Assembly: GCF_045037415.1 (NCBI RefSeq)
Contig: NZ_CP173438.1
Origin: Escherichia coli
GTDB taxonomy: Bacteria > Pseudomonadota > Gammaproteobacteria > Enterobacterales > Enterobacteriaceae
Length of the DNA: 64,000 bases
Strand: one strand, 5' to 3'
The notes beneath the pieces were generated by a model. That model searched no databases, was not told where the DNA came from, and saw only the letters and a program-made list of their open reading frames with translations. Each line of letters begins with the position of its first letter. Position 1 is the stretch's first letter. Shown in pieces: positions 12,781-13,060 of this stretch. A program made the position numbers and the translations under genes.

Positions 12781-12820
12781 AAAAACCGCCTCAGTTCTTT
12801 CACCAGAACGGGCGGTTTTT
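12781..12820. terminator. bidirectional terminator-like hairpin (yebY / RyeA)
   Basis: AAAAACCGCC...GGCGGTTTTT. Confidence 0.45.
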
Positions 12821-13060
12821 AATATTTAAGCTGATGACCACCACGCTTTTTATTGACCATTTTGCACGCAAACTGGAAAACCTGGCGTCGTCATCTATTC
12901 TTAAAGAGCAAGGCAACTAAGCCTGCATTAATGCCAACTTTTAGCGCACGGCTCTCTCCCAAGAGCCATTTCCCTGGACCGAATACAGGAATCGTGTTCG
13001 GTCTCTTTTTATCTGTTAAAAGCCAGAAGCATTCCCTTCGCTGACTTTATAGTCAACCAT
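12785..13060 (-). ncRNA. ryeA: RyeA (SraC) antisense small RNA overlapping SdsR; ends approximate
   Basis: established sense/antisense pair at this locus in E. coli; boundaries not determinable from sequence alone. Confidence 0.3.
12908..13010 (+). ncRNA. sdsR: SdsR (RyeB) sigma-S-dependent small RNA
   Basis: sequence GCAAGGCAACUAAGCCUGCAUUAAUGCC...GACCGAAUACAGGAAUCGUGUUCGGUCUCUUUUU matches recalled SdsR incl. terminator; TCTATTCTT -10 element just upstream. Confidence 0.75.

What the first reader, a model, noticed from the sequence alone, without database searches (positions are those of the whole stretch)
12785..13060. SdsR / RyeA sense-antisense sRNA pair between yebY and pphA
A 103-nt transcript-like unit (12908..13010, + strand) matches recalled SdsR, with a sigma-S-type -10 (TCTATTCTT) just upstream and a strong intrinsic terminator. 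RyeA is expected fully antisense to it. The ORF-track entry 12853..13044 is most likely a spurious frame across this RNA.
Basis: partly seen in the sequence, partly recalled or inferred. Interest (0 to 1): 0.3.

Follow-up and report, generated by a model that had tools for sequence, protein, structure and literature searches.

The report
Known SdsR/RyeA antisense sRNA pair
This is the well-studied E. coli SdsR/RyeA locus, a stationary-phase regulatory small RNA overlapped by a longer antisense RNA between yebY and pphA, so the finding is correct but ordinary.

Summary
The observation and the interpretation both hold. The window is E. coli chromosome. Rfam finds SdsR_RyeB at 12911..13010 (+) with 114 bits against a cut-off of 38, and SraC_RyeA at 13014..12870 (-) with 176 bits against 37. 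Bases 12908..13010 are identical to MG1655 sdsR nt 2-104. 12908 corresponds to the transcription start that Choi et al. 2019 mapped in MG1655. MG1655 ryeA (272 nt) maps to 13048..12778 (-) with 4 substitutions and one 1-nt indel, and it covers SdsR completely.

The quoted TCTATTCTT is at 12894..12902, which is -14 to -6. It carries the -13 C typical of sigma-S promoters, with TGGAAA 16 bp upstream. This layout recurs in more than 100 enterobacterial species.

The terminator hairpin (12976..13004, then T5) pairs in all 90 distinct homologues, with 4 compensatory pairs. The 63-codon frame 12853..13044 starts upstream of the SdsR start, keeps its boundaries in only 2 of 112 loci and has no Pfam match, so it is spurious.

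Two refinements apply. The RyeA terminator tail runs to about 12778 and its promoter lies at about 13056-13064, so the unit slightly overruns the given span. The RF00101 hit is the reverse complement of sdsR plus its promoter, so it is not independent evidence for RyeA. Nothing here is new.

The parts
12409..12750 (+). yebY CDS (context; upstream neighbour of sdsR)
   Evidence: ORF of 113 aa, annotated yebY in identical E. coli genomes. A yebY homologue lies on the same strand ~170-250 nt upstream of the SdsR core in 111 of 120 loci from other species.
12780..12820 (.). Bidirectional intrinsic terminator: A6 tract, interrupted GC-rich hairpin (core 12786..12815), T5 tract. It ends yebY on the + strand and RyeA on the - strand.
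   Evidence: The - strand RNA folds into a hairpin followed by UUUUUU at -20.1 kcal/mol, z = -3.4. RyeA 3' ends at +261..+270 were mapped in MG1655 and reproduced by in vitro transcription as Rho-independent termination (PMC6610125). The simple terminator scan missed it because the stem has a bulge.
12874..12879 (+). sdsR promoter -35-like hexamer TGGAAA, 16-bp spacer to the -10
   Evidence: Read directly. TGGnnA sits at this spacing in 101 of 103 distinct promoter regions. The 16-bp spacer is listed as a sigma-S feature in PMC3333887.
12894..12902 (+). sdsR extended -10, TCTATTCTT (-14 T, -13 C, hexamer TATTCT 12896..12901, -8 C, A/T-rich discriminator follows)
   Evidence: Read directly. A CTA-containing -10 with -13 C is found in 103 of 103 distinct promoters, and exactly TCTATTCTT in 54 of them. 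The criteria come from PMC3333887. E-sigmaS makes SdsR in vitro (PMC6610125).
12908..13010 (+). SdsR (RyeB) sRNA gene; in vivo 3' ends expected at 13007..13009
   Evidence: RF00111 at 114.4 bits. 103/103 identical to MG1655 sdsR nt 2-104. Start and 3' ends (+100..+102) were mapped in MG1655 (PMC6610125). Present in 5425 of 5426 E. coli genomes.
12908..12926 (+). SdsR stem-loop 1 (nt 1-19)
   Evidence: MFE fold. A comparable hairpin forms in all 69 distinct 5' variants despite sequence change, e.g. GCAAGGC/GCCUGC versus GUAAGGCU/AGCCUAC. Structure probing is reported in PMC5137417.
12925..12949 (+). SdsR single-stranded target-pairing region (nt 18-42). RNase E site is at nt 31 (about 12938). 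Seed residues are C15 = 12922, G26 = 12933, C38 = 12945.
   Evidence: Positions 12928..12967 are 96-100% identical across 112 loci. Only 12928..12941 counts as independent evidence, because 12942..12967 was fixed by the search pattern. Probing, the RNase E site and seed mutants are in PMC5137417. 5' ends at +31..+34 were seen by RACE in E. coli (PMC6610125).
12950..12967 (+). SdsR stem-loop 2 (GGCUCU/AGAGCC, nt 43-60)
   Evidence: It is invariant in the 90 homologues, but this stem was part of the search pattern, so that invariance carries no information.
12968..12975 (+). AU-rich linker AUUUCCCU, the proposed Hfq site between SL2 and SL3
   Evidence: Nearly invariant. A CLIP-seq Hfq site covering nt 65 is cited in PMC5137417.
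12976..13010 (+). SdsR stem-loop 3, the intrinsic terminator: 11-bp stem, loop AGGAAUC, then C + U5
   Evidence: Terminator scan. 100% of cells are paired in 90 distinct sequences, and 4 of 11 pairs show compensatory double changes. The loop is nearly invariant and is needed for fepA repression in E. coli (PMC11979758). Read-through into pphA is documented (PMC6610125).
12778..13048 (-). RyeA (SraC) antisense RNA, ~271 nt here, fully overlapping sdsR and its promoter
   Evidence: MG1655 ryeA (b4432, 272 nt) aligns here with 4 substitutions (12823, 12828, 12907, 13034) and a 1-nt shorter A/T run. RF00101 scores 176 bits over 13014..12870. The +1 at sdsR +141 was mapped in MG1655 (PMC6610125).
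13056..13064 (-). Probable ryeA extended -10 (TGTTATGGT on the - strand), 5-7 nt upstream of the three mapped starts (13050, 13049, 13048)
   Evidence: Inferred from the sequence. The stretch GTGTGTGTTATGGTTGACTATAAAGTCAG is identical to K-12, and the GTGTGTGTTATGGTTGA part is also kept in Escherichia sp. E1V33. I could not see the published figure that marks the hexamer Choi et al. mutated, so the exact hexamer assignment is mine. A sigma-70-only promoter is shown in PMC6610125.
13145..13801 (+). pphA CDS (context; downstream gene, co-transcribed with sdsR by terminator read-through in MG1655)
   Evidence: ORF, annotation, and the sdsR-pphA dicistronic transcript (PMC6610125).
12853..13044 (+). 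63-codon ORF across the RNA: not a gene
   Evidence: It starts 55 nt upstream of the SdsR start. Its boundaries are kept in only 2 of 112 loci. It has no Pfam match. It is not annotated in MG1655 or in PGAP genomes.

Best explanation
The region is the E. coli sdsR/ryeA locus.

Shown here from sequence: on the + strand, a sigma-S-type promoter (TGGAAA, 16 bp, TCTATTCTT) precedes a ~100-103-nt RNA starting at 12908. The RNA has a 5' hairpin, a 24-nt invariant single-stranded stretch, a second hairpin, an AU-rich linker and an intrinsic terminator. On the - strand, a ~271-nt RNA (13048..12778) runs from a K-12-identical promoter region, through the whole of sdsR and its promoter, to a bidirectional terminator shared with yebY.

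Taken from published experiments on MG1655 and Salmonella and transferred by sequence identity: SdsR is made by RpoS-RNA polymerase in stationary phase and binds Hfq. RNase E cuts it at nt 31 into a ~70-nt form. It represses trans-encoded mRNAs (ompD in Salmonella; tolC, yhcB, crp, stpA and others) by base-pairing through two seed stretches around G26 and C38. RyeA is made by sigma-70 polymerase in growing cells. [quoted passage not shown] Convergent ryeA transcription also interferes with the sdsR promoter. Together these effects confine SdsR to stationary phase. Transcripts that read through the sdsR terminator supply pphA mRNA.
For: Rfam hits well above gathering scores on both strands. 103/103 identity of 12908..13010 to MG1655 sdsR, and 4 substitutions plus 1 indel across the 272-nt ryeA. 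Identical flanking genes. Stable fold with z = -4.4. Terminator helix paired in all 90 distinct homologues, with 4 compensatory pairs. 5' hairpin retained in 69 of 69 sequence variants. Conservation is confined to about 12872..13015, exactly promoter plus RNA. A -13 C promoter is found in 103 of 103 distinct promoters. yebY synteny holds in 111 of 120 loci. The - strand terminator folds. The RyeA promoter/start stretch is identical to K-12. Experimental basis for starts, ends, sigma-factor dependence, mutual degradation, interference and pphA read-through: PMC6610125. RpoS dependence and ompD: PMC3333887. Structure, RNase E, Hfq and two seeds: PMC5137417.
Against: There are no expression data for this strain, so every functional statement is transferred from MG1655 or Salmonella. 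The base at -1 of sdsR differs from K-12 (A versus G at 12907). RyeA differs at +15 (13034), and its promoter region differs at -30 (13078). The effects on start-site choice or promoter strength are untested. The RF00101 hit is not independent evidence for RyeA, because the model is the reverse complement of sdsR plus its promoter. It also scores 120-175 bits in species where the region that holds the RyeA promoter in E. coli is unrelated. The simple sigma-70 scan did not call either promoter. My assignment of the ryeA -10 hexamer is inferred, not read from the published figure.
Confidence: 0.97

Rival explanations
1. The + strand frame 12853..13044 (63 aa), or the shorter frame from the invariant ATG at 12931, encodes a small protein, making the locus protein-coding or dual-function.
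For: The frame is open. ATG 12931 and the frame through the RNA are present in most species, because the nucleotides are nearly invariant.
Against: The TTG start at 12853 lies upstream of the SdsR start, so it is not on the sRNA. ORF boundaries are kept in only 2 of 112 loci, and the stop position varies from +76 to beyond +229. There is no in-frame stop before the mapped RNA 3' end, and I saw no Shine-Dalgarno motif before 12931. The four common substitutions in the terminator arms preserve RNA pairing. By my reading of the frame, two of them (G/A at 12976, C/T at 12986) would change the amino acid, giving Gly/Arg and Thr/Ile. There is no Pfam match and no annotation in MG1655. None of the five papers matching SdsR plus small protein plus ribosome profiling has SdsR in its title or abstract; I did not read them.
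Confidence: 0.01
2. Only SdsR is a selected regulator. RyeA is a lineage-specific antisense by-product with no function of its own, and the 'toxin-antitoxin' label reflects over-expression.
For: Outside the overlap with sdsR, RyeA sequence is poorly conserved, with 24-55% column identity on both sides. Its promoter region differs in position and sequence even in E. albertii and Salmonella. [quoted passage not shown] A ryeA promoter mutant changes only a few genes (PMC6610125).
Against: The ryeA promoter mutation advances SdsR appearance and raises pphA expression in MG1655, and sigma-70-specific transcription and mutual degradation were shown directly (PMC6610125). An antisense transcript exists in E. 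coli, Shigella and Salmonella despite promoter turnover (PMC3333887). This rival disputes RyeA's importance, not what is encoded here.
Confidence: 0.15
3. The locus is present but inactive in this strain, because the -1 G-to-A change or the RyeA -30 and +15 changes disable a promoter.
For: These three positions differ from K-12.
Against: The -35, the spacer, the extended -10, the discriminator and +1 of sdsR are identical to K-12. E. albertii also carries A at -1. The 501-nt region is 100% identical in many clinical and animal isolates. The RyeA -10 and start stretch is unchanged.
Confidence: 0.02

Closest known systems
SdsR (RyeB) of E. coli K-12 / Salmonella, Rfam RF00111
   Same: Identical sequence over nt 2-104 of the MG1655 gene. 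Same promoter architecture, three-stem-loop structure, yebY-downstream position and terminator.
   Different: Only the base immediately before the mapped start differs: A here and G in K-12 at 12907. Older annotation counted that base as nt 1.
RyeA (SraC) of E. coli K-12, Rfam RF00101, b4432
   Same: Same start region, same short E. coli-type distance (38 nt) from the start to the sdsR terminator, same terminator shared with yebY, and full overlap of sdsR.
   Different: There are 4 substitutions (12823, 12828, 12907, 13034) and a 1-nt shorter terminal U run, plus one substitution at -30 in the promoter region (13078). Salmonella, Shigella and E. albertii versions start about 35 nt or more further upstream (PMC3333887).
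Other convergent sRNA/antisense-antagonist pairs, and type I toxin-antitoxin loci in which an antisense RNA neutralises a toxic transcript
   Same: A cis-encoded antisense RNA pairs with and destabilises its partner through RNase III. Choi et al. describe SdsR as the toxin and RyeA as the antitoxin (PMC6610125).
   Different: The 'toxin' is a non-coding Hfq-dependent regulator, not an mRNA for a toxic peptide. Toxicity was seen on over-expression, and no peptide-coding signature is present.

Membership tests
SdsR_RyeB (RF00111) | Covariance-model score above the curated gathering score over the full model | tested here: met
   114.4 bits versus 38, model positions 1-100, E 1.8e-21.
SdsR_RyeB (RF00111) | Sequence identity to the experimentally defined E. 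coli SdsR | tested here: met
   103/103 over 12908..13010 against MG1655 b4433 nt 2-104. 12908 equals the mapped start (PMC6610125).
SdsR_RyeB (RF00111) | 5' hairpin, long single-stranded seed region, SL2, AU-rich linker, terminator SL3 | tested here: met
   The MFE fold matches the probed structure (PMC5137417), except for a weak predicted pairing in nt 25-41 that probing does not support. SL3 is 100% paired with 4 compensatory pairs. SL1 is retained in 69 of 69 variants. SL2 is invariant and therefore uninformative.
SdsR_RyeB (RF00111) | Sigma-S-selective promoter (-13 C, -14 T/G, -8 C, A/T discriminator, 16-bp spacer) | tested here: met
   All five features are read at 12874..12905 against the criteria in PMC3333887, and they are conserved across species. 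This is sequence-level evidence only.
SdsR_RyeB (RF00111) | Position directly downstream of yebY on the same strand | tested here: met
   yebY ends at 12750 and sdsR starts at 12908. The same arrangement holds in 111 of 120 loci.
SdsR_RyeB (RF00111) | RpoS-dependent stationary-phase accumulation, Hfq binding, repression of targets | not testable with these tools
   Known for MG1655 and Salmonella (PMC3333887, PMC5137417, PMC6610125). No expression data exist for this strain.
SraC_RyeA (RF00101) | Covariance-model score above the gathering score | tested here: met
   176 bits versus 37. This is not independent of the SdsR hit. The model spans 13014..12870, the reverse complement of sdsR plus its promoter, and it also hits species whose RyeA promoter region is unrelated.
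SraC_RyeA (RF00101) | Antisense transcription unit with its own promoter downstream of the sdsR terminator and its own terminator | tested here: met
   The start region and the probable extended -10 are identical to K-12. A - strand terminator hairpin with a U6 run is present. The whole 272-nt K-12 RNA aligns with 4 substitutions and 1 indel.
SraC_RyeA (RF00101) | Sigma-70-dependent expression in exponential phase and RNase III-dependent co-degradation with SdsR | not testable with these tools
   Shown in MG1655 (PMC6610125). Inferred here by identity.
sRNA toxin / antisense antitoxin pair (as named by Choi et al.) | Growth inhibition by SdsR over-expression, relieved by RyeA | not testable with these tools
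   Only the published claim for MG1655 is available (PMC6610125).

The most novel reading that the evidence does not exclude
The invariant ATG at 12931 sits inside the SdsR seed region and opens a frame with no stop before the sRNA's 3' end. On sdsR-pphA read-through transcripts this frame would be translated into a 37-aa peptide (stop at 13042..13044), making SdsR a dual-function RNA. My evidence makes this very unlikely but does not formally exclude it. I saw no ribosome-binding site. The stop position and C-terminus vary between species. The substitutions follow RNA pairing rather than codon position.
Probability: 0.01. Interest if true: 0.45.

Novelty: already known. Interest (0 to 1): 0.06.

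Why it matters
It matters only as annotation. RefSeq/PGAP records of non-K-12 E. coli list no feature under this sequence, so a scan that flags it correctly fills a routine gap. SdsR belongs to the core enterobacterial sRNA set and links RpoS to the envelope, efflux (tolC) and global regulators. The locus is a textbook case of convergent sRNA genes controlling each other. Nothing in this window changes that picture.

Tried and rejected
(1) The first genome-contig scan used a pattern with one N too many in the SL2 loop and found nothing.

(2) Sequence-only MAFFT misaligned the indel-rich 5' hairpin, so the pair count for helix 1 (73% paired) is an underestimate. I replaced it with per-sequence folding of the 24 nt before AAUGCC.

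(3) The generic sigma-70 and terminator scan found neither the sdsR nor the ryeA promoter, and it missed the bulged yebY/RyeA terminator. I read these elements by hand and checked them against published criteria and against folding.

(4) I first counted the RF00101 hit as evidence for RyeA, then rejected it as not independent once it scored 120-175 bits in species with unrelated downstream sequence.

(5) The protein-coding reading of 12853..13044 and of the 12931 frame was tested and rejected.

(6) The invariance of SL2 and of 12942..12967 in the comparative set is an artefact of the search pattern, so I did not use it as evidence.

(7) I could not see Figure 1A of PMC6610125, so the exact ryeA -10 hexamer that was mutated there is not confirmed.

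Full report
**Identity of the window and the hit.** The stretch 12700..13200 is 100% identical to many complete E. coli chromosomes. It matches 5425 of 5426 complete E. coli genomes, with yebY and pphA annotated on either side. A gathering-threshold Rfam scan of the whole window gives SdsR_RyeB (RF00111) at 12911..13010 on the + strand, with 114.4 bits against a cut-off of 38 and E 1.8e-21. It gives SraC_RyeA (RF00101) at 13014..12870 on the - strand, with 176 bits against a cut-off of 37 and E 1.6e-40. Both are full-length model matches.

**Mapping to the curated MG1655 genes.** MG1655 annotates ryeA (b4432, 272 nt) and sdsR (b4433, 104 nt) between pphA and yebY. Aligning that intergenic region to the window shows 5 substitutions and one 1-nt indel in 395 nt. 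None of these differences falls inside 12908..13010, which is 103/103 identical to sdsR nt 2-104.

The single difference in the annotated gene is its first base (K-12 G, window A at 12907). Choi et al. 2019 showed by primer extension and RppH-dependent 5' RACE that transcription starts 1 nt downstream of that old 5' end, as in Salmonella. They mapped the 3' ends at +100 to +102 (PMC6610125).

RyeA +1 in MG1655 is sdsR +141. That is 13048 here, with two further starts 1-2 nt upstream and 3' ends at +261..+270. The K-12 RNA aligns to 13048..12778 with substitutions at 12823, 12828, 12907 and 13034 and a 1-nt shorter terminal A/T run. RyeA therefore covers SdsR and its promoter completely.

**Promoters.** With +1 at 12908, the quoted TCTATTCTT (12894..12902) gives T at -14, C at -13, TATTCT at -12..-7 and C at -8. 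A TAA discriminator follows, and TGGAAA (12874..12879) sits 16 bp upstream. These are the sigma-S selectivity features listed for sdsR by Frohlich et al. 2012 (PMC3333887).

For the comparative work I used 120 loci fetched from one-genome-per-species bacterial assemblies with a 21-base core pattern. Among them, a -10 containing CTA with C at -13 is present in 103 of 103 distinct promoter regions. TGGnnA sits at the 16-bp spacing in 101 of 103.

For ryeA, the - strand reads TGTTATGGT at 13064..13056, 5-7 nt upstream of the mapped starts. I take this as an extended -10. The stretch through the start is identical to K-12, and most of it is kept in Escherichia sp. E1V33. E. albertii, Salmonella, Citrobacter and Enterobacter have different sequence and a longer distance to the sdsR terminator. 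This agrees with the published statement that the sraC -10 lies about 35 bp further upstream in Salmonella and Shigella. The hexamer assignment is my inference, because I could not see the published figure.

**RNA structure.** The 103-nt RNA folds at -34.8 kcal/mol with z = -4.4. It forms SL1 (12908..12926), SL2 (12950..12967) and the terminator SL3 (12976..13004), followed by C + U5. This matches the structure probed in Salmonella, which also shows nt 18-42 single-stranded, RNase E cleavage at nt 31 and Hfq sites near nt 27 and nt 65 (PMC5137417).

The published seed residues fall on the expected letters in this sequence, which confirms the numbering: C15 at 12922, G26 at 12933 and C38 at 12945.

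In 90 distinct homologues, SL3 is paired in 100% of cells and 4 of its 11 pairs show double compensatory changes. SL1 aligns badly because of indels (73% paired in the MAFFT alignment). Folded one at a time, however, all 69 distinct 5' variants form the same kind of hairpin. SL2 is invariant, but it was part of the search pattern and so says nothing. The terminator loop AGGAAUC is nearly invariant, and a recent study found this loop necessary for repression of fepA (PMC11979758).

**Extent of conservation.** Column identity to the window across 112 sequences rises from background (0.24-0.55) to 0.69-1.00 only between about 12868 and 13015. It falls back to 0.25 immediately after the terminator. 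The conserved unit is therefore the sdsR promoter plus SdsR. The RyeA-specific parts on both sides are not conserved beyond close relatives, as Frohlich et al. reported.

This is why the RF00101 hit is not independent evidence. The model covers only the reverse complement of sdsR and its promoter. It scores 120-175 bits in Yersinia, Serratia, Dickeya, Hafnia and others, and still passes its cut-off in the two most divergent loci. The case for RyeA in this window rests instead on near-identity to K-12 across the mapped promoter, start and terminator.

That terminator (core hairpin 12786..12815, flanked by A6 and T5) folds on the - strand at -20.1 kcal/mol and is followed by U6. It also serves yebY on the + strand.

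**The ORF.** The 63-codon frame 12853..13044 begins 55 nt upstream of the SdsR start. It keeps its start and stop in only 2 of 112 loci: the window itself and one other. Elsewhere the open frame shrinks to the stretch from the invariant ATG at 12931 to a stop whose position varies widely.

That ATG has no visible Shine-Dalgarno motif, and there is no in-frame stop before the RNA's 3' end. The common substitutions in the terminator arms preserve pairing, and by my reading of the frame two of the four would change the amino acid. There is no Pfam match and no annotation. The ORF is a by-product of an invariant RNA sequence.

**Mechanism.** The anatomy above is shown from sequence. The rest is transferred from experiments on identical or near-identical sequence.

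- E-sigmaS makes SdsR and E-sigma70 makes RyeA in vitro.
- Each RNA accelerates degradation of the other.
- ryeA transcription interferes with the sdsR promoter.
- pphA mRNA arises mainly by read-through of the sdsR terminator (PMC6610125).
- SdsR represses ompD through RNase E, and about 20 further targets through two seed regions, including crp, stpA, tolC and yhcB (PMC3333887; PMC5137417).

The documented read-through tempers the description of the terminator as 'strong'.

**Synteny.** A yebY homologue lies on the same strand 170-250 nt upstream in 111 of 120 loci, and four of the nine exceptions lack enough upstream sequence to tell. pphA is the immediate downstream gene only in Escherichia, some Citrobacter and Pseudenterobacter.

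**Verdict.** The thing is already known in full detail. The only corrections are that the functional unit runs from about 12778 to about 13064, and that the two Rfam hits are one piece of evidence rather than two.

Noticed in passing
L091:10970-11110 (uncultured Paraglaciecola sp. MAG, contig CANMKA010000001.1): An SdsR-like element sits outside Enterobacterales. RF00111 scores 62.5 bits against a cut-off of 38. It has the same SL2, a CCAUUCCCCU linker and a terminator, and a CCTATACTT -10 with C at -13 lies about 35 nt upstream of the Rfam match. The 5' part is unrelated and no yebY is present. The neighbours are a SIMPL/DUF541 gene, an acyl-CoA thioesterase gene and, about 1.4 kb away, proQ. 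I do not know whether SdsR homologues in Alteromonadales have been described.
   Followed up: partly
window 12907: The base just before the mapped sdsR start is A here and in E. albertii, but G in K-12 and in the GTDB E. coli representative. Older annotation counts this base as SdsR nt 1. Its effect on start-site choice is unknown.
   Followed up: partly
window 28502..28962 (+): The Rfam 'cspA thermoregulator' hit (RF01766, 135.6 bits) is not cspA. The encoded protein begins [30 protein letters not shown]. By position relative to MG1655 this is yobF-cspC (my coordinate estimate; I did not align it). The model evidently also matches a cspA paralogue.
   Followed up: partly
window 48011..48096 (+): Full-length sroD sRNA hit (RF00370, 115.2 bits).
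   Followed up: no
L004 (E. albertii) and L062 (Salmonella enterica subsp. arizonae), region downstream of the sdsR terminator: On the RyeA strand, the E. coli TGTTATGGT start region is replaced by a longer, different stretch with TGTGATATAA or TGTGGTATAA motifs. This fits the longer SraC reported for Salmonella and Shigella. E. albertii also has no pphA hit in the 1.2 kb available downstream.
   Followed up: partly
L082 (record titled Martelella alba strain BGMRC 2031): A genome labelled as an alphaproteobacterium carries a yebY-sdsR locus of Enterobacterales type (RF00111 at 109 bits, yebY 52% identical). The record is probably mislabelled or contaminated.
   Followed up: no
E. coli RefSeq genomes under the SdsR match (e.g. 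H16-H27): PGAP-annotated genomes list no feature under the 103-nt SdsR sequence. Among the records I looked at, only the curated MG1655 record names sdsR and ryeA. The 103-nt query gives 5433 places in 5425 records, so a few genomes hold two places, and one place is on a plasmid.
   Followed up: no
L104 (uncultured Erwinia sp. MAG): A divergent SdsR (RF00111 at 90.5 bits) whose 5' half, including the AAUGCCAAC seed stretch, is replaced (GAGGCCAAAGUU). SL2, the linker and the terminator are kept, and yebY is upstream. This suggests the first seed can turn over while the 3' module stays fixed.
   Followed up: no
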